From the sequence record PZ379181.1: DNA of 44,789 nucleotides; one strand, given 5' to 3'. Source of the DNA: a phage. The translations under genes were made by a program, and so were the position numbers. Under the pieces are notes generated by a model, which worked only from the letters and a program-made list of their open reading frames with translations, ran no database searches and was not told where the DNA came from. Numbering within the stretch: the stretch's first letter is position 1; each line of letters begins with the position of its first letter. Positions 2,741 to 43,886 of this stretch are shown here, piece after piece.

Positions 2741-3430
2741 ATGGTTATCTGGTCTTTATTTGATGGTTCTGGTCTGGCGGTAAAGGATTGGGCTGAAGCT
2801 GGCCACACTTGCTACTGTTTCAACTTTGATGAGTCTGACCACGGCAGCTACAGTGACTTAAATGCAAAGGTTGAGCATGAGAACATCACATACGTTAACG
2901 CATGGATAGATGCTGACTTCGATTTTGATGTGAAACCTGATTTTATAATGGCGTTCCCTCCATGCACTGACTTAGCCGTGAGCGGATCAAGACACTTTGA
3001 ACGCAAGTGTATAGCTAACCCTAACTTCCAAATTGAAGCTGCGGAGACGTGCAAGATTGCTTTTAATCTTGCTGAAAAATACGGAGTACCATACATGATC
3101 GAGAACCCAATCAGCGTACTGTCATCACTTTGGCGAAAACCTGATAACACCTTCCACCCATATGAATACGGAGGCTATTTGCCGGAAGATGATTTACACC
3201 CGTTTTTTAGCGACCTAATAAAGCCAAAAGACGCATATCCCAAGAAGACATGCATTTGGTATGGCAATGGGTTTAAATGGCCAGAGGCAATTCCAGTGGA
3301 CGTTAACGGTGGATTCTCTGACCAATACAAGAAGCTAGGCGGGAAGAGCAATAAGACAAAGGTAATTCGCAGCCTAACTCCTCGCGGTTTTGCAAAAGCC
3401 GTCTTCATTGCAAATAGCACCAATTGCTAA
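2741..3430 (+). CDS. DNA methyltransferase (SAM-dependent; class uncertain)
   Basis: 229 aa; FDGSG (FxGxG SAM motif), then FPPC and ENP in the order seen in C5-MTase motifs I/IV/VI; could equally be a T1 Dam-like enzyme. Confidence 0.5.
   Translation: MVIWSLFDGSGLAVKDWAEAGHTCYCFNFDESDHGSYSDLNAKVEHENITYVNAWIDADFDFDVKPDFIMAFPPCTDLAVSGSRHFERKCIANPNFQIEAAETCKIAFNLAEKYGVPYMIENPISVLSSLWRKPDNTFHPYEYGGYLPEDDLHPFFSDLIKPKDAYPKKTCIWYGNGFKWPEAIPVDVNGGFSDQYKKLGGKSNKTKVIRSLTPRGFAKAVFIANSTNC
3415..3429 (+). promoter_or_regulatory. TAGCA-N5-TGCTA operator/promoter module (upstream of lipoprotein gene)
   Basis: TAGCAccaatTGCTA; its TAA is the stop codon of the methyltransferase ORF. Confidence 0.5.
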
Positions 3431-3498
3431 AGACAAATCTCAAGGATGAGATATCATTACTCCATTGAAACGAAACACACCTTCTAAGGAATACGAAA

Positions 3499-3744
3499 AT
3501 GACTAACTTAATCAAACTTTCAATCATCGCAGCAGCAGCAATCATGATGGTGGGTTGTTCTTCTGCTCCGCGTCCTGACGGATGGTGTGCAACGCAAGCA
3601 AACGGCGTGTGCGTGGCTAAATGGGAAAATGGTGTGGTTGTACCGTCTGGTGAAGTTGATGTGCGATACGCTGGTATTGAGAGCAAGGCTGGCGGCGGTT
3701 ACGGTGGCTCTGTTGCTGACCATGGGTCTAAGGAGTGGAAATAA
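3499..3744 (+). CDS. Small lipoprotein, putative superinfection-exclusion (Cor/Llp-like)
   Basis: 81 aa; hydrophobic signal peptide with lipobox-like MVGC; immediately upstream of putative receptor-binding protein gene. Confidence 0.5.
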
Positions 3745-24712: not shown

Positions 24713-25237
24713 TTACAGCTTACTAATCACAGACTCCAGCGCTTCCTTCATCGTATCGACGTCGTTAGCTGAAGAGTTGTTGCTGATGGTAATCTCCTGC
24801 GGCTTGTCGATTCCAAGCTCTTTGGAAATCATGCCAGGGTTAATGATGCCAGATGCTGCAAGCTGGTATTTCTGCTCGCGAATCACGGAATCAATGAACG
24901 CAATCACCTCATCATAACCAGCCGACTTCCTCCATTTCTCGATGGCGCTATGGGTGACACCGCAGTAAAGGCAGAATCCGGTTAGCGTGAAGACTCGTGG
25001 TTTGTGCACCAGGCTCTCTTTTACCACACCCTGGAAGCTGGCTGTCTCGATTGCCTTGATTGCCTGGTTCTCAGCCCATGAGAAGTATTTCACGGCGAAT
25101 TCAAATAGCTGTTCGGGTGTCATGCTTCGGTTTTTGGCTAGCGTTGTAATGTCTGAGTACTTTTTATTGTACATGGCTTTAAAGTTGCCAGAGCGGACCT
25201 TTTCTTGCGCCTGACTGGTGAAGTTTTCGTCTTTCAT
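24713..25237 (-). CDS. Terminase small subunit
   Basis: 174 aa immediately upstream of large subunit; AGGAGG RBS. Confidence 0.6.
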   Translation of the reverse strand: MKDENFTSQAQEKVRSGNFKAMYNKKYSDITTLAKNRSMTPEQLFEFAVKYFSWAENQAIKAIETASFQGVVKESLVHKPRVFTLTGFCLYCGVTHSAIEKWRKSAGYDEVIAFIDSVIREQKYQLAASGIINPGMISKELGIDKPQEITISNNSSANDVDTMKEALESVISKL

Positions 25238-25774: not shown

Positions 25775-25850
25775 TGGTGTTCCGCACTGGACTCGAACCA
25801 GTAACTAAGACTTAGGAGGTCTTTGCGTTATCCTGTTACGCCAGCAGAAC
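25775..25850 (-). tRNA. tRNA-Arg (anticodon CCU)
   Basis: 76 nt folded by hand: 7-bp acceptor stem GTTCTGC/GCGGAAC, D arm GCGT/ACGC, anticodon loop CTCCTAA, T arm ACTGG-TTCGAGT-CCAGT, discriminator A, encoded CCA. Confidence 0.85.
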
Positions 25851-30036: not shown

Positions 30037-30295
30037 ATTCGTTACTCCTGATTGGTTGCTCTTCGTTAAGATGAAACCATGGTATCATGAATATACGCGT
30101 TATCAAGTGTTATGTTGTGTTTATATCTGCATTGGTTACGCTTTTTGACCTCTCAGCCCAGCTATAGCTGGTGTAATTACCCTGTGTAAGATTTTACGCG
30201 GATTCGCCGGGGGTATGCATATGTATCTATATAGATAAAATTAGTAGTTTTCATAGAAAAACTATCGACCCATCCATACGACCAATCTACACCAT

Positions 30296-30373
30296 ATACA
30301 TACATATATATAATAATAATAATAATATAGTAAAAGGTTGATATATATAGATATTATTATGTAACCATTGCGT
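30296..30373. repeat. AT-rich block with (ATA)n tract, copy B
   Basis: About 85 percent identical to 2511-2590. Confidence 0.8.
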
Positions 30374-30521
30374 AATCTAGCGTGGTAGGCGTGTATGATT
30401 CTTCGGAAGCGCACCTCATATACACACCATAACTTCGATAACGTGTATATCCAAATTGGCTCAGCAAGAATCAAAATCAACTTGTATGGTAGTCCATCCA
30501 CCATTCATTCACCCCACATCG

Positions 30522-30622
30522 ATCATTGCAAATTCTGCAACAATCAAAAACATCATTGCATTCGATGCAATATTGCTATATGTGCAATAATGAGATGAAT
30601 CATTGCAATAGCTGCAACAATC
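30522..30622. repeat. Iteron-like cluster of seven TGCAA/CATTGCA sites
   Basis: ATCATTGCA x3 and TGCAA(C/T)AAT(C/G) x4 within 100 bp, both orientations. Confidence 0.6.
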
Positions 30623-30637
30623 TATAAATCCAACGAA

Positions 30638-30652
30638 TAGCACTTTTTGCTA
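30638..30652 (+). promoter_or_regulatory. TAGCA-N5-TGCTA operator/promoter module (plus-strand operon)
   Basis: TAGCActtttTGCTA followed by TATGTATTCATCGAAACGG. Confidence 0.5.
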
Positions 30653-30883
30653 ATGCACAATCATTAGTAAGTTGCTACTATGTATTCATCGAAACGGTGC
30701 TGGACTCTGAGTCACTTCCGAAAGGAACCAAAAGAGTGAACGACACCGCGCAATGTGAGGAAGCGTTACCTTACCCACCAAAGCGCCTTGCGGGTCCTTT
30801 TGATAGGATGCCGGGCCGGGTTTAAAATCCCGAGTTGTAGTGAGTACGTTGAAGAGATTTCGATAACAAGAAAACATAGAGAG

Positions 30884-31054
30884 ATGACAGTGATGACAGA
30901 AAAAACAGTTGGTTACAGTTACAGTAATGGTCATTGGGTTGTTGAGTTAAAAGGGTTTCACAAGTACCCAAAATTAAGTTTCTTCATGACAGAAGATGAT
31001 GCAAAGTCTTGGGTTCAGGTTCTTAAAGAAAGGTGGTTTAAAAATGAAACTTAA
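30884..31054 (+). CDS. hypothetical protein (56 aa); start uncertain
   Basis: Frame is open from 30755 but first ATG with upstream GAGAG is 30884/30893. Confidence 0.35.
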   Translation: MTVMTEKTVGYSYSNGHWVVELKGFHKYPKLSFFMTEDDAKSWVQVLKERWFKNET

Positions 31055-32580: not shown

Positions 32581-32638
32581 ATGCATTATAAGCGGCTATT
32601 GATATAATGGCCGCTCAGAAACAATGCGGAGAGAAGTA

Positions 32639-34222
32639 ATGTTTGATTTCAATGAAGATAAACTATCTGTTGAGCAAGTTATGGCGATCGCTGCCAATGA
32701 CAACCTACCACCGCTTCGCGTGGCTATTAATGCCAATGGCTATCGACAGTCTCAATCGTTCTGGAAAGCACCTGTCGAGATTGATACAGGTAATGATAAG
32801 TATCCAGTAATCTCACTCGGTAATGATATTGATGTTGTTGGTAAGCTATCGGCTAATATCGCTCGCTCGGTTCAGTTCCCTGAGTCGTCAGCTTACATGC
32901 ACTTTCTTGGTTGTGTTTCTGCTGCAATGCTTGGGCGTTTTACTGTCGAGTATCATGGAACCCAACAGCCAACATCTTTGTACGTGGTAACAAGTCAGCC
33001 GCCTTCAACTGGTAAATCAGCCATTAACTCGCTATCAATTGCGCCGATGATTGCTGAGACTGAGCGGTTGAATGAAGTACGTAAACGTGATCGAAAAAAG
33101 ATTATGGCTAAACTGTCCGCTCTGGCTAAAGAGATGAAGCAGGAGAAATCACCTTCTGAAATGGCTTCACTTTTTGAGGAGAAGGAGGATTTAGAGGAGA
33201 AGCTCGAGAAGCTATGCGATATAGTATTCCCTGTCTCCGATACTACTCCGGAAGGTCTTGCGCGAATCAACAATCGCCAGGGTAATTTTGCGGTAATCTC
33301 TGATGAGGCTACTAGCGTCAACTCACTGTTAGGCATGACTTACGGTGATGGCTCGAAGAAAACGAACAGCGAGCTCGTGCTGAAAGCATGGGATGCAGGT
33401 AATGTGTCAATTGCCCGTGCGAACGCAGAAAATAACATGAGCTTTGTGGCTATGGGATGCATCTCCGTAATTGCTCAGGATGAAACAATCAATGCCATTA
33501 TGAATGCTGGTGCGCGTGGTATTGGTGTATCTGAGCGTTTCCTTCTGGTGCGTGAAAAATCATTTCTTGGCGACCGTGTATTTGTTGATGAAAATGGTGA
33601 TTCAACCTATGAGGCTATTGATGGCGGCCTGAAAGCAGACTATTTCCGTCTTGTTCATGAGATTATGAATGAAGTTGAAGTGAAACTTACTGTAAGCGCG
33701 TCATCAATGCGTTACCTTAACCGCGCTCGTCAAGAGATGGAGCCTCATCTTGGTGATGGTGGCAAGTATTCTCACACAATGTTGCGCGGTGCTCTTGGTA
33801 AGTTTGATAAGCAAGCAATCCGCATCGCTTCTGTTCTGCACGTAATTCGTAACTGGTTCTCACCAGCCGGATCCAGCCCTCAAAAGTCAAGAGAGATTGA
33901 ACTGGATACAATGCAGGAAGCGGTTATGATTTTCAACGAACTAAGCAAGACTTATTTATCATCCGCTAGTGCTGCTGGTCATGCTGGTGACAATGCCGAG
34001 ATGAACAAGCTGGTTGATATCCTGATTAAGCAGGGCAAGAATGGTAAAGGTGTTGTTGGTGTTCGCTCGTTGTATGAGGCTGCACGCAAGGTTAAACCTT
34101 TTGAAGCTCAGGCTGGAATTATGACTCGCATTAAGGACCACTTGATTCCTATGCTTGATGAGAAAAACTACACATGCCTGATTGGTGATAAAATTTACAT
34201 TAATCCACGATTGCTGGGGTAA
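32639..34222 (+). CDS. Putative replication-associated P-loop protein
   Basis: Start at ATG 32639; 527 aa; Walker-A-like SQPPSTGKS; sits in replication region. Confidence 0.4.
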   Translation: MFDFNEDKLSVEQVMAIAANDNLPPLRVAINANGYRQSQSFWKAPVEIDTGNDKYPVISLGNDIDVVGKLSANIARSVQFPESSAYMHFLGCVSAAMLGRFTVEYHGTQQPTSLYVVTSQPPSTGKSAINSLSIAPMIAETERLNEVRKRDRKKIMAKLSALAKEMKQEKSPSEMASLFEEKEDLEEKLEKLCDIVFPVSDTTPEGLARINNRQGNFAVISDEATSVNSLLGMTYGDGSKKTNSELVLKAWDAGNVSIARANAENNMSFVAMGCISVIAQDETINAIMNAGARGIGVSERFLLVREKSFLGDRVFVDENGDSTYEAIDGGLKADYFRLVHEIMNEVEVKLTVSASSMRYLNRARQEMEPHLGDGGKYSHTMLRGALGKFDKQAIRIASVLHVIRNWFSPAGSSPQKSREIELDTMQEAVMIFNELSKTYLSSASAAGHAGDNAEMNKLVDILIKQGKNGKGVVGVRSLYEAARKVKPFEAQAGIMTRIKDHLIPMLDEKNYTCLIGDKIYINPRLLG

Positions 34223-36569: not shown

Positions 36570-37043
36570 TTATTCTCCGTGAGATTCGCAGTCTTTTGGT
36601 AATTCTTTATATTCACAAACTGACATTACAGTATATCCGCAATTCCTTAGGTGACTGATAACATTAGGATTATCCTCAAAGATTATCACACTTGCTTTGT
36701 CACCATTACACAAATCATTTAGCCACATCTCTTTAATGATATAGTCATTTCTGTTATCCAATCTACTCCTCATATATATTCCATCATAATTAATATTATT
36801 ATACTGAAGCCATTCAAGCGTCATACATTCGACTTCGTCACTTCTTGAAGTCATGATGTAAACTGGCGATAACTCAGCTAACGCATTCATCATGTTTATC
36901 ATTGGAATTATCGGTGAATCTCCAGAACAGGCTCTATTGTAATCACTCCAACTTGAAGTCAAGTGAAGGTCACTAGATGGTAAGAGGTGGCTTCTATGTT
37001 CATTGTTAGCAATAGTTCCATCAATATCAAACACGTAAATCAT
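36570..37043 (-). CDS. HAD-family phosphatase
   Basis: 157 aa; N-terminal FDIDGT motif (DxDGT); ends 1 nt before kinase start. Confidence 0.65.
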   Translation of the reverse strand: MIYVFDIDGTIANNEHRSHLLPSSDLHLTSSWSDYNRACSGDSPIIPMINMMNALAELSPVYIMTSRSDEVECMTLEWLQYNNINYDGIYMRSRLDNRNDYIIKEMWLNDLCNGDKASVIIFEDNPNVISHLRNCGYTVMSVCEYKELPKDCESHGE

Positions 37044-41865: not shown

Positions 41866-41933
41866 TTTAAATATCCCGACATTTTGTTAGTTCGTTGCAT
41901 TGCTGTATAATAACAACTATCGACCCTATTGTT

Positions 41934-41961: not shown

Positions 41962-42435
41962 ATGTGTGAAATTGACAAGCGAACTATCAACGGCAATAAC
42001 GGAACCATCCGCACGCAAGACAAGAAACAGCGCAAACGACCGTCAGGCTACTACGTATTGAAAGATGAAGTAAAGGCTGGGCTAAGAGCTCGTCTGGAGA
42101 TGGTTCTTGACTTCTACGGCACGAAGGCCAATATCGCCAAGCAGTTAAATGTATCTCACCAGACTGTAGAACAATGGTTTGATCGCGGTATGATTTCGGC
42201 TCGAGGCGCCCAGCGAGCACATAATGCGTACAAGAGAAATAAGGGAGGGTTCCGAGCTACTTTCTGCCGACCAGACCTGCAATTTGACGGTAACGGTAAG
42301 CCTCTGACGCTTAGATGCAAGAAGCGCCACATGCTACGCGTGGTTACTGAGGCTGAACTAGCAACAAAGCCACCTTGTCGACCGTGGCGCAAGAATAAGA
42401 TTGCCAACGAAGCCGCACGAAAAGCTAAAGAGTAA
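41962..42435 (+). CDS. HTH DNA-binding protein (Cro/YdaS-like), candidate regulator
   Basis: 157 aa; TKANIAKQLNVSHQTVEQWFDRG helix-turn-helix; basic C-terminus. Confidence 0.55.
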   Translation: MCEIDKRTINGNNGTIRTQDKKQRKRPSGYYVLKDEVKAGLRARLEMVLDFYGTKANIAKQLNVSHQTVEQWFDRGMISARGAQRAHNAYKRNKGGFRATFCRPDLQFDGNGKPLTLRCKKRHMLRVVTEAELATKPPCRPWRKNKIANEAARKAKE

Positions 42436-42486: not shown

Positions 42487-42966
42487 ATGAACTGGCATGA
42501 TTATTTTTACTATGTAGATGGCAAATTGCATTGGAAGATTAGCACTGCAAGACGTGTTAAGGTTGGCGATGAGTGCAACTCACTATCTACATCTGGCTAT
42601 TACAAAGTGTCTGTTAATGGCTTTAGGACTTATGTACATAGAGTTGTGTGGGAGATGTTTAATGGAGAACTTCAAAATGGCGACTACATTGATCATATAA
42701 ACCATAACAAATTAGATAACAGAATAGAAAACCTAAGAGTAACAACAAATCAAGGTAACTCAAGAAATTGCAAGCTTAGCGTTTTATCAACAACTGGTTA
42801 TTGTGGAGTGGCAAAGCTAAATCACGGAAAATTTAAGGCTCACATCAAGGTTGACGGCAAGCAGCTACACCTTGGGAACTTCGATACTCCAGAGCGGGCG
42901 TATAAAGTAAGAATTGAAGCAGAGGGAAAATACAACTTTCACGAAAATCACGGGTTAAGCAAATGA
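42487..42966 (+). CDS. HNH homing endonuclease with AP2-type domain
   Basis: YVHRVVW...IDHINHNKLDNRIENLR; GGAGAG RBS; ATGA overlap with primase start. Confidence 0.8.
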   Translation: MNWHDYFYYVDGKLHWKISTARRVKVGDECNSLSTSGYYKVSVNGFRTYVHRVVWEMFNGELQNGDYIDHINHNKLDNRIENLRVTTNQGNSRNCKLSVLSTTGYCGVAKLNHGKFKAHIKVDGKQLHLGNFDTPERAYKVRIEAEGKYNFHENHGLSK

Positions 42967-43886
42967 ATTACGATAAGAATGAAGTTATACCTAAGATGGC
43001 CGGATTGTGGAAATCATTTTATGCAAAGGAACTTGGTTGGAATGATAGACACCTAAGTAAGAAGCACGGACCATGCCCATACTGCTTTGGCACTGACAGA
43101 TTCAGATTTACCGACGAAATAGGCAGTGAAAAAGGAAATGGCGCGGCAGTTTGTTCGAAATGCGGAAGTGACTCCGGTATAGGATGGGTCATGAAGTGCA
43201 CTGGATTGTCCTTCGCTGATTCAGTAAATTTGCTTGGTGACTGGCTGAACTTAATACCAATTGAGGTTATAGTTAAAGCAAACAAGCAAGCATCAAGAAC
43301 GCAGCGTTATAAAATTTGCGCTCAAGTAGACCACAAGAAAGTTCTTGAGGTCATGGAGAGGACTCAGCGAGTTGAATCTAGTCCACTCACGACATACGAG
43401 GGTATTTATGACGAGTTTGGTTTTGATGTTGGTATAGCTAAAAATTGTTCAATGATTCACGCAATCCCTTGTTCGATGGTTTATGAAGATGGGCTTAGTG
43501 ATGAGTTCTGTAACGTAATGTTTATTGATGAGGATTCAAATGTTAAGTTCCTTGCTGGTGATTACACTCGTGATTCTGTTTCCGTTATTGGTTCTAAGCT
43601 GGATGATAGTTATACTTATGTTGTTGACAATTATATTGATGGCATACGTGTTCACCTTGCTACTGGTGGGCGCGAAGTGTTTGTTGCTTTCTCCTGTTAC
43701 AATATGGAGATGGTTATCCACCGCGACAAGTCAAGGAAGTTCAGAATTGCTTGCCGTGATTCTGATAGCGATATACTCGCTGTTGCTGACGATAGGGGTG
43801 TTGATGTTGTAGTTCCTAATGACGGTGAGTCATTTAAAACAGGCATACGAAAGAAAGTGTACAAAGCAAACGACTTGCTAAACTAA
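42963..43886 (+). CDS. DNA primase (zinc-ribbon type)
   Basis: 307 aa; CPYCFGTDRFRF...CSKCG zinc-binding motif near N-terminus; next to helicase region. Confidence 0.6.
   Translation: MNYDKNEVIPKMAGLWKSFYAKELGWNDRHLSKKHGPCPYCFGTDRFRFTDEIGSEKGNGAAVCSKCGSDSGIGWVMKCTGLSFADSVNLLGDWLNLIPIEVIVKANKQASRTQRYKICAQVDHKKVLEVMERTQRVESSPLTTYEGIYDEFGFDVGIAKNCSMIHAIPCSMVYEDGLSDEFCNVMFIDEDSNVKFLAGDYTRDSVSVIGSKLDDSYTYVVDNYIDGIRVHLATGGREVFVAFSCYNMEMVIHRDKSRKFRIACRDSDSDILAVADDRGVDVVVPNDGESFKTGIRKKVYKANDLLN

What the first reader, a model, noticed from the sequence alone, without database searches (positions are those of the whole stretch)
30522..30622. Iteron-like cluster of seven TGCAA sites next to the AT-rich block
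ATCATTGCA (x3) and TGCAA(C/T)AAT (x4) repeat in both orientations within 100 bp, between the AT-rich block and the first plus-strand operator. Iterons plus an AT-rich tract are the classic layout of a replication origin or a regulator-binding array.
Basis: partly seen in the sequence, partly recalled or inferred. Interest (0 to 1): 0.5.

Follow-up and report, generated by a model that had tools for sequence, protein, structure and literature searches.

The report
Four palindromic sites beside phage pac
The repeats are real: four conserved 17-base palindromic protein-binding sites in a T1-like phage, sitting right next to where relatives start packaging their DNA and just upstream of an early promoter, so they more likely help start packaging or control that promoter than serve as a replication origin.

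Summary
The "seven TGCAA sites" are eight half-sites forming four 17-bp palindromes, ATTGCW-N5-TGCAAY, at 30525, 30555, 30572 and 30602 (spacing 30/17/30). The exact pattern occurs nowhere else in the 44.8-kb window.

The window is a T1-like (Drexlerviridae) phage genome. The array lies in the 850-bp divergent intergenic region. In 21 distinct relatives the TTGC/GCAA cores are 92-100% conserved and the spacing is unchanged. Arm substitutions break pairing (51) rather than compensate (2). The overlapping ORFs carry stops in half the relatives. So this is a protein-binding DNA element, not RNA or coding sequence.

Published or deposited termini of five relatives (TR1, Rao1, MSK, UDF157lw, SU57) map to window 30471-30497, 28-55 bp left of site 1. 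Packaging runs leftwards from there. The T1, Rtp and Rogue1 records start inside the array. Site 4 ends 18 bp before the first rightward early-promoter element.

My favoured reading (about 0.4) is a nucleoprotein platform for packaging initiation. The rivals are an upstream operator array for the early promoter (about 0.3) and origin sites (about 0.15). The binding protein is not identified. This is a new member of a known kind, of moderate interest.

The parts
30525..30541 (.). Site 1, ATTGCAAATTCTGCAAC (extended form ATCATTGCA-N5-TGCAACAAT, 30522-30544). Centre about -155 from the inferred start of the rightward early transcript.
   Evidence: The right half is invariant in 21 relatives; the left half is TTTC or TTGA in some.
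30542..30554 (+). 13-nt spacer AATCAAAAACATC between sites 1 and 2. It is itself highly conserved and carries the strand-specific AATCA motif.
   Evidence: Alignments; ATCA strand asymmetry of 6 versus 0.
30555..30571 (.). Site 2, ATTGCATTCGATGCAAT. This is the only perfect palindrome of the four, matching on both strands with 0 mismatches.
   Evidence: In relatives the central N7 varies while TTGC and GCAA are kept.
30572..30588 (.). Site 3, ATTGCTATATGTGCAAT, abutting site 2. The 30571/30572 junction is the symmetry centre of the array. It corresponds to position 1 of the T1 and Rogue1 GenBank records.
30589..30601 (+). 13-nt spacer AATGAGATGAATC between sites 3 and 4.
30602..30618 (.). Site 4, ATTGCAATAGCTGCAAC. 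Its centre is about -78 from the inferred transcript start, and it ends 18 bp before the DR element.
30469..30510 (-). Conserved block AATCAAAATCAACTTGTATGGTAGTCCATCCACCATTCATTC. It holds the positions equivalent to the packaging-series start of relatives: SU57 about 30471, MSK about 30489, UDF157lw about 30493, TR1 30497, Rao1 30497. Packaging proceeds towards lower coordinates.
   Evidence: MSK: PMC8421802, mapped through L001. TR1: PMC10450929 plus the GenBank note. Rao1: record end. UDF157lw: PMC10838988 and L107. SU57: PMC7718038 and L127/L128.
30637..30681 (+). First rightward early promoter. It comprises the T1-type 'DR' element ATAGCACTTTTTGCTAA (30637-53, itself a palindrome TAGCA-N5-TGCTA), a -35-like ATGCAC (30653-58), a 17-nt spacer and a -10 TACTAT (30676-81). 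The inferred transcript start is near 30688.
   Evidence: The DR has 18 copies in the window against 1.65 expected. The promoter layout is read from the alignment. The DR is described in PMC11447400 with function unknown.

Best explanation
The array is a single-copy platform of four dyad-symmetric sites, each read by a dimer-like pair of DNA-binding domains. It forms the non-packaged arm of the pac (packaging initiation) region of this T1-like phage.

Proposed mechanism: late in infection a phage protein occupies the four sites on the replicated concatemer. That protein could be the small terminase itself or an accessory sequence-specific dimer. Occupancy builds a roughly 100-bp nucleoprotein complex. 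The complex positions the large terminase to make the first cut 28-55 bp to the left (window about 30471-30497). Headful packaging then runs leftwards through the early genes, terS/terL and the structural genes.

Shown here: the sites exist, are unique in the genome, are conserved in sequence and spacing, are non-coding and not an RNA structure, and lie next to the termini reported for relatives.

Inferred: that a protein binds, which protein it is, and that binding directs the cut.
For: 1. The array is single-copy in the genome, as a pac site should be.
2. Five independent terminus assignments in relatives from two subfamilies fall at window 30471-30497, all reading leftwards. These are TR1 at 30497, Rao1 at 30497, UDF157lw at about 30493, MSK at about 30489 and SU57 at about 30471.
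3. In UDF157lw (Rogunavirinae) the sequence at the cut differs from that of Braunvirinae, yet the distance to site 1 is kept at 31-32 nt against 28 nt.
4. The T1 record, which annotates a 2.8-kb terminal repeat from position 1, starts exactly at a site (GTTGCATGGTGTGCAAC). Rtp and Rogue1 start inside the array.
5. The TLS pac, mapped by restriction digests, lies in the homologous place.
6. The pair of 17-mers 30 bp apart is the most widely kept noncoding feature of this region. It occurs in Braunvirinae, Rogunavirinae, Nouzillyvirus, T1-like and Webervirus-like contigs.
7. Across the family the same slot holds different repeat clusters. This is the pattern expected of a fast-evolving recognition specificity.
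8. There is precedent. SPP1 uses multiple contact points flanking the cut (PMC9611059). P1 pac has short repeats flanking a central cut (my own knowledge).
Against: 1. The small terminase is a P22 gp3 homologue (Pfam PF16677; PDB 3p9a, E 1.4e-13). That is a ring oligomer whose P22 target is a single asymmetric 22-bp sequence. Rings are expected to read direct repeats, not palindromes.
2. Phages sharing the same array have small terminases only 61-69% identical to this one. The T1 and TLS terminases are equally distant (54% and 52%) although only T1 has such sites.
3. All terminus data come from relatives, mostly from PhageTerm, and are spread over 26 bp. How position 1 was chosen in T1, Rtp and Rao1 is unknown to me.
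4. One paper (TR2) gives a coordinate that does not map here.
5. Adjacency to the early promoter, and resemblance to its DR palindrome, fit a transcriptional role equally well.
Confidence: 0.4

Rival explanations
1. The array is an upstream operator array for the first rightward early promoter. A dimeric helix-turn-helix protein binds the four sites at about -78, -108, -125 and -155 and modulates transcription from the DR promoter at 30637-30681. The binder could be the phage's Cro-like regulator (41962-42435) or the unknown factor that reads the DR element. On this reading the nearness to pac is incidental.
For: - The sites are classical 17-bp dyad operators with half-sites 11 bp apart.
- Site 4 ends 18 bp before the DR.
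- The DR is itself a palindrome, TAGCA-N5-TGCTA. It has the same geometry as the sites and differs from TTGCA-N5-TGCAA by one base per half-site. It is centred near -43, a class-II-activator-like position.
- The only annotated regulator of T1-like phages has a Cro/YdaS-like helix-turn-helix. Its recognition helix changes between lineages that carry different repeat clusters in this slot.
Against: - The sites do not overlap the core promoter, so simple repression is unlikely.
- The 17 other DR promoters work without any such array.
- There is no such site at the regulator's own promoter.
- Helix and cluster type do not track cleanly. L045 has nearly the same helix as the A2 group but no TTGC sites, and TLS and L032 share the AGACC palindrome but have different helices.
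- All Pfam matches of the regulator are below the curated cut-offs.
Confidence: 0.3
2. The array is the replication origin. The four sites bind an initiator, perhaps the Cro-like protein encoded just upstream of the primase. The initiator melts the nearby AT-rich block and loads the phage helicase and primase.
For: - There are four repeated sites of about 17 bp and an AT-rich block in one large intergenic region.
- Lambda's origin also has four sites of about 18 bp (annotated), each dyad-symmetric (my own knowledge).
- The candidate binder sits in the primase operon.
- The origin of T1-like phages is unknown, and the TLS authors found no iterons elsewhere.
Against: - The AT-rich block is 165 bp from site 1, separated from it by a conserved block and the packaging cut.
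- The spacing is irregular (30/17/30).
- No initiator gene adjoins or encloses the sites. The neighbouring DUF7174 protein has no T1 homologue although T1 has two sites.
- GC skew gives no signal independent of the coding strand.
Confidence: 0.15
3. The sites bind a host transcription factor or nucleoid protein that the phage exploits. From memory, the half-site WWTGCAAY resembles the CytR octamer AATGCAAC.
For: The only support is the resemblance of the half-site to the CytR octamer, which is my recollection and was not tested. The phage is virulent and has few regulators of its own.
Against: - No E. coli genome holds anything similar to the array.
- T1-like phages of the same host carry quite different repeat clusters in this slot (TLS, L032, L035). 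That argues for a phage-encoded, co-evolving reader.
Confidence: 0.05
4. The array is a relic tandem duplication with no present function.
For: The array is formally a 47-bp tandem duplication at 72% identity.
Against: The cores and the exact spacing are conserved across three or more subfamilies whose flanks have diverged. The pattern is far above chance.
Confidence: 0.03

Closest known systems
SPP1 pac region (pacL-pacC-pacR)
   Same: A multi-site protein-binding region flanks the first terminase cut and includes an arm on the side that is not packaged. It occurs once per genome and starts a unidirectional headful series (PMC9611059, plus my own knowledge).
   Different: The SPP1 contacts are short direct repeats and bent DNA read by a different family of small terminase. 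Here the sites are four 17-bp palindromes, and the terminase is a P22 gp3 homologue.
P22 pac site and gp3 small terminase
   Same: The small terminase is homologous (PF16677; PDB 3p9a, E 1.4e-13). Both are headful packagers whose cuts are imprecise and lie near the recognition site.
   Different: The P22 pac is one asymmetric 22-bp sequence inside the terS gene. Here the candidate element is palindromic, occurs four times, is intergenic and lies 5.3 kb from terS.
P1 pac site
   Same: Clusters of a short repeated motif lie on both sides of the cleavage region; this is my own knowledge. The T1 record start falls at the centre of the array.
   Different: The P1 motifs are GATC-containing hexamers controlled by Dam methylation and read by PacA/PacB. 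The sites here have no conserved GATC, and the termini of close relatives lie to one side of the array, not in its centre.
Lambda OR/OL operators
   Same: Both are tandem 17-bp dyad-symmetric sites beside an early promoter in a divergent control region, and the phage encodes a Cro-like protein (operators annotated; regulator).
   Different: The lambda operators overlap their promoters and serve a lysis-lysogeny switch. Here the sites lie 78-155 bp upstream of the start, there are four of them, and the phage is virulent.
Lambda ori iterons and plasmid iteron origins
   Same: Both have four repeats of about 17-18 bp with an AT-rich tract nearby (lambda iterons annotated).
   Different: The lambda iterons are evenly spaced (20-24 bp), lie inside the initiator gene and directly adjoin the AT-rich tract. 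None of these holds here.
The 21-nt intergenic repeat ('DR') of T1-like phages
   Same: The palindrome geometry is the same and the core is nearly the same: TAGCA-N5-TGCTA against TTGCA-N5-TGCAA. The array sits directly upstream of one DR.
   Different: The DR is present 18 times, always co-oriented with genes and at a fixed distance from a -10 box. It is the same in all subfamilies. The array is single-copy and specific to certain lineages.

Membership tests
pac site of a headful-packaging phage | Occurs once in the genome | tested here: met
   The exact 17-mer pattern gives 4 hits, all in the array. Half-site density is 9 per 100 bp here, with a next-best of 4.
pac site of a headful-packaging phage | Coincides with the start of the packaging series (the preferred terminus) | tested here: inconclusive
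   Termini reported for five relatives map 28-55 bp to the left of site 1. No read data exist for this phage itself, and the sites are adjacent to the cuts, not at them.
pac site of a headful-packaging phage | Specifically bound by the small terminase | not testable with these tools
   Homology to ring-forming P22 gp3 argues against reading of palindromes. Terminase identity does not track presence of the array.
pac site of a headful-packaging phage | Sufficient to direct packaging of foreign DNA | not testable with these tools
   This needs a plasmid transduction assay. The lambda pseudo-site test was inconclusive.
Operator array of a dimeric helix-turn-helix regulator | Dyad symmetry with half-sites about one helical turn apart | tested here: met
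   TTGC and GCAA centres are 11 bp apart in all four sites.
Operator array of a dimeric helix-turn-helix regulator | Half-sites conserved while the central spacer is free to vary, without compensatory change | tested here: met
   The TTGC core is 92-100% conserved over 168 half-sites. The centres of sites 1 and 2 vary. Arm changes: 51 break pairing, 2 are compensatory.
Operator array of a dimeric helix-turn-helix regulator | Overlaps or closely flanks the regulated promoter | tested here: inconclusive
   Site centres are near -78 to -155, and nothing overlaps the -35/-10 region.
Operator array of a dimeric helix-turn-helix regulator | A cognate regulator is encoded and its specificity co-varies with the sites | tested here: inconclusive
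   A Cro-like protein is present. Its recognition helix varies by lineage, but not cleanly with cluster type.
Iteron-type replication origin | Three or more direct repeats in one orientation with regular spacing | tested here: not met
   The sites are palindromes, and their spacing is 30/17/30.
Iteron-type replication origin | AT-rich unwinding element directly adjacent | tested here: not met
   The AT-rich block at 30220-30360 is 165 bp from site 1. The conserved block and the packaging cut region lie between them.
Iteron-type replication origin | Initiator gene adjoining or enclosing the repeats | tested here: not met
   The neighbours are a DUF7174 protein and small ORFs of unknown function. 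The helicase is 2 kb away and the primase 12 kb away.
Iteron-type replication origin | Replication initiates here | not testable with these tools
   GC skew only mirrors the coding strand.

The most novel reading that the evidence does not exclude
The array and the 18 'DR' promoter elements are read by one still unidentified factor of T1-like phages that recognises WTWGCA-N5-TGCWAW. At promoters it would act as a class-II-type activator centred at -43. At the four-site array it would build a complex that couples the switch in early transcription to the choice of the packaging start. This would answer the open question of what the T1-type intergenic repeat does.
Probability: 0.1. Interest if true: 0.65.

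Novelty: new member of a known kind. Interest (0 to 1): 0.42.

Why it matters
T1-like phages are a large family. They are notorious laboratory and fermentation contaminants and are used as transducing and therapeutic phages. Their pac recognition sequence, replication origin and transcriptional control are still undefined. One paper states that the pac site 'was not identified' (PMC7718038). Another asks what the intergenic repeats do and reports finding no iterons (PMC11447400).

This array is the best-conserved single-copy noncoding element next to the mapped packaging start. It therefore gives a concrete, testable candidate for the packaging or regulatory signal. It also gives a sensible, biology-based point at which to open and compare Drexlerviridae genome records. 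It is not a new kind of mechanism.

Tried and rejected
**RNA or cruciform structure: rejected.** Across 21 arrays, 51 arm changes break pairing and 2 compensate. There was no meaningful Rfam match (one hit, 19.9 bits against a gathering score of 37).

**Coding sequence: rejected.** Both ORFs over the array have stop codons in 11 of 21 relatives. Some relatives nevertheless annotate small CDSs there.

**DUF7174 neighbour as the binding protein: unlikely.** T1 has two sites but no homologue of it.

**Host mimicry: no support.** No E. coli genome matched.

**Co-variation of site type with the small terminase or the Cro-like regulator: not decisive.** I used 100 IMG/VR loci. Everything is confounded with phylogeny. 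The one discordant relative (L032) differs in array and regulator helix, and its terminase was not retrieved by either terminase search.

**Lambda pseudo-pac test: inconclusive.** Lambda has two near-matches to T1 site A against 0.03 expected, and one lies between P and Q. From memory, a T1 packaging start was mapped in that interval. However, the similarity lies mostly in the spacer, and the place is not a cluster of half-sites. The original paper is not held.

**GC skew for an origin: uninformative**.

**Strand-biased ATCA/AATCA motif as the terminase signal: only moderate.** The count is 6 against a mean of 1.7, and it is not the top window in the genome.

**Papers that could not be used.** The Rtp paper is not held. 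The TR2 PhageTerm coordinate cannot be mapped to its GenBank record.

Full report
**What the window is.** The region matches T1-like siphophages (Drexlerviridae): 42 records by megablast and 130 by blastn for the 261 bp around the finding. The ORF layout is that of phage T1 read backwards.
- On the minus strand, small early genes (30036 down to about 25300) lead into terS (24713-25237), terL, portal, head and tail genes.
- On the plus strand from about 30890, small genes lead to a DUF3987 helicase at 32624-34222.
- The finding lies in the 850-bp intergenic region between these two divergent units.

**The observation.** The sequence is as described, but it has a cleaner structure than 'seven TGCAA sites'.
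- It consists of four 17-bp palindromes, ATTGCW-N5-TGCAAY, at 30525, 30555, 30572 and 30602. The start-to-start spacing is 30, 17 and 30.
- Sites 2 and 3 abut, and the whole is a 47-bp tandem duplication.
- The exact pattern occurs only here.
- With one mismatch allowed there are 13 matches against 2 expected, and no shuffle reaches 13.
- The half-site density of 9 per 100 bp is more than twice the next-highest place in the genome.

**Conservation.** I collected 21 distinct versions of the array from Braunvirinae, Rogunavirinae, Nouzillyvirus and others.
- From site 1 to the promoter the alignment has no gaps, so the 30/17/30 spacing is invariant.
- The half-site logo over 168 half-sites is A-T-Y-R-T-T-G-C-W. 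TTGC is 92-100% conserved, while the centres of sites 1 and 2 vary freely.
- Where an arm changes, the change breaks the palindrome (51 cases) rather than being compensated (2 cases). In Rogunavirus, single half-sites have decayed independently.
- The two ORFs that overlap the array have stop codons in about half of the relatives.
- There is no Rfam family here and no similar sequence in E. coli genomes.

Together these show a DNA element read by a sequence-specific protein with two-fold symmetry. The half-site centres are 11 bp apart, which is one helical turn.

**Surroundings.**
- Eighteen bp to the right of site 4 is the T1-type 'DR' element ATAGCACTTTTTGCTAA. It occurs 18 times in the window against 1.65 expected, always co-oriented with the genes. 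The TLS paper describes it and lists its function as an open question.
- From the alignment, a -35-like hexamer, a 17-nt spacer and a -10 box (TACTAT, 30676-81) follow. This puts the DR centre near -43 and the four site centres near -78, -108, -125 and -155 (the transcript start is inferred).
- The DR is itself a palindrome, TAGCA-N5-TGCTA. That is the same geometry as the array sites, with one base different per half-site.
- To the left lie a conserved block (30469-30510), then a 37-bp long-range inverted repeat (30088-30124 and 30418-30453) that brackets the AT-rich block.

**The packaging start.** Several records of relatives begin in or beside the array, so I mapped published termini onto the window.

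| Phage | Source of the terminus | Window equivalent |
|---|---|---|
| TR1 | PhageTerm site at record position 3615 | 30497 |
| Rao1 | record start | 30497 |
| UDF157lw (a Rogunavirus) | record re-opened by PhageTerm; starts 31-32 nt left of site 1 | about 30493 |
| MSK | PhageTerm position 36,862 | about 30489 |
| SU57 | record start | about 30471 |

- All five read leftwards, towards terS and the structural genes.
- The T1 record annotates a 2.8-kb terminal repeat from position 1. It starts exactly with a site (GTTGCATGGTGTGCAAC), with a second site 30 bp on. Its position 1 corresponds to the site 2/site 3 junction.
- Rtp and Rogue1 start within 6 bp of that junction.
- The TLS pac, mapped by restriction fragments, is in the homologous region.
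- The array therefore lies on the non-packaged side of the first cut, 28-55 bp away.
- One report (TR2) gives a coordinate I could not map to this region.

**Who binds?** This is not resolved.
- *Small terminase.* It is a P22 gp3 homologue, a ring-forming protein whose P22 target is asymmetric. That fits palindromes poorly. Phages with the same array have terminases only 61-69% identical to this one. T1 and TLS terminases are equally distant although only T1 has such sites.
- *Cro-like regulator.* The one annotated regulator of T1-like phages is ST23 in T1, at 41962-42435 here. It has a Cro/YdaS-like helix-turn-helix, though below Pfam cut-offs. Its recognition helix differs between lineages.
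- *Variation of this slot across the family.* Across about 100 IMG/VR loci, the slot upstream of the first rightward DR carries lineage-specific repeat clusters:
  - four TTGC-N7-GCAA sites;
  - two such sites plus a TTGTC-N5-GACAA site;
  - two such sites plus TATTCC/GGAATA repeats (T1-like and Webervirus-like contigs);
  - AGACC-N4-GGTCT twice (TLS);
  - direct ATTGCGTGC repeats;
  - and other forms.

  This is the behaviour of a co-evolving recognition module, but helix type and cluster type do not match cleanly, and phylogeny confounds the comparison.

**Weighing the models.**
- *Packaging platform (about 0.4).* It explains the single copy, the fixed relation to the termini in two subfamilies whose sequence at the cut differs, and the start points of classical records. 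Its weakness is the palindrome-versus-ring mismatch and the indirect terminus data.
- *Operator model (about 0.3).* It explains the dyad symmetry, the promoter adjacency and the likeness to the DR. It does not explain why only one of 18 DR promoters has such an array, or why the sites sit so far upstream.
- *Origin model (about 0.15).* It rests only on 'four repeats plus an AT-rich tract'. Three of its four defining features were tested and not met.
- *Host-factor and relic readings.* Both are unlikely.

**Comparison and novelty.** The nearest analogues are the multi-contact pac regions of SPP1 and P1, and the tandem 17-bp operators of lambda. The small terminase itself belongs to the P22 gp3 family. 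I found no paper that describes this array: the TLS paper reports no iterons, and the SU57 paper says the pac site was not identified. It is thus a newly delineated member of a known kind of element. Its interest is moderate and comes mainly from making the pac signal and early control of a large phage family testable.

Noticed in passing
window 30637-30653 and 17 other places (one search list): The T1-type 'DR' element occurs 18 times against 1.65 expected, co-oriented with genes. It is a palindrome, TAGCA-N5-TGCTA, centred about 43 bp upstream of the inferred transcript start. That position is typical of class-II activator sites. Its function is an open question in the literature (PMC11447400).
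   Followed up: partly
window 30088-30124 and 30418-30453: A 37-bp long-range inverted repeat (88% in two segments) brackets the AT-rich block. The right arm contains a motif ACGYGTATA that is conserved in all aligned relatives. The left arm overlaps a leftward promoter-like site (TTGATA-16-TACCAT, 30106-30079).
   Followed up: no
loci L024-L066 and L070-L106, about 200 nt upstream of the first rightward DR: This slot carries different repeat clusters in different Drexlerviridae lineages. Examples are TTGC-N7-GCAA, TTGTC-N5-GACAA, TATTCC/GGAATA, AGACC-N4-GGTCT, GTGTC-N5-GACAC and direct ATTGCGTGC repeats. It looks like a fast-evolving recognition module.
   Followed up: partly
window 41962-42435 (+), with its promoter at 41884-41912: A Cro/YdaS-like helix-turn-helix protein (the T1 ST23 homologue) has its own good sigma-70 promoter (TTGTTA-16-TATAAT). 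It lies just upstream of an HNH endonuclease gene (42487-42966) and the primase (42963-43886). Its recognition helix is lineage-specific.
   Followed up: partly
window 30688-30892: The first rightward gene is preceded by a leader of about 200 nt. The leader is shared with Veterinaerplatzvirus T145P1 but absent from most relatives, where the first gene follows the promoter directly. It shows no Rfam match and no excess folding energy (z -0.2).
   Followed up: yes
window 25775-25850 (-): There is a tRNA-Arg (anticodon CCT) among the small early genes upstream of terS.
   Followed up: no
L129 (lambda) 27164, 33458, 39898, 42838: Lambda carries TTGCATGGTG three times. It also has two 17-mers within 3 mismatches of T1 site A, against 0.03 expected. 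One of them lies in ninG, between P and Q, where (from memory) a T1 packaging start on lambda was mapped.
   Followed up: partly
relatives: TR1 CDS 3595-3744, TR2 CDS 3393-3521, Sadiya_63: Small 'hypothetical protein' CDSs are annotated across or beside the array in several GenBank records. The frames are not conserved, so they are probably spurious.
   Followed up: yes
window 30469-30480, 30542, 30598: The motif AATCA/ATCA occurs 6 times on the plus strand between 30440 and 30660 and never on the minus strand. AATCA-rich runs also flank the start of the TLS record and the T1 sites. This may be a family-wide signal, but here it is only about 3 sd above the genome mean.
   Followed up: partly
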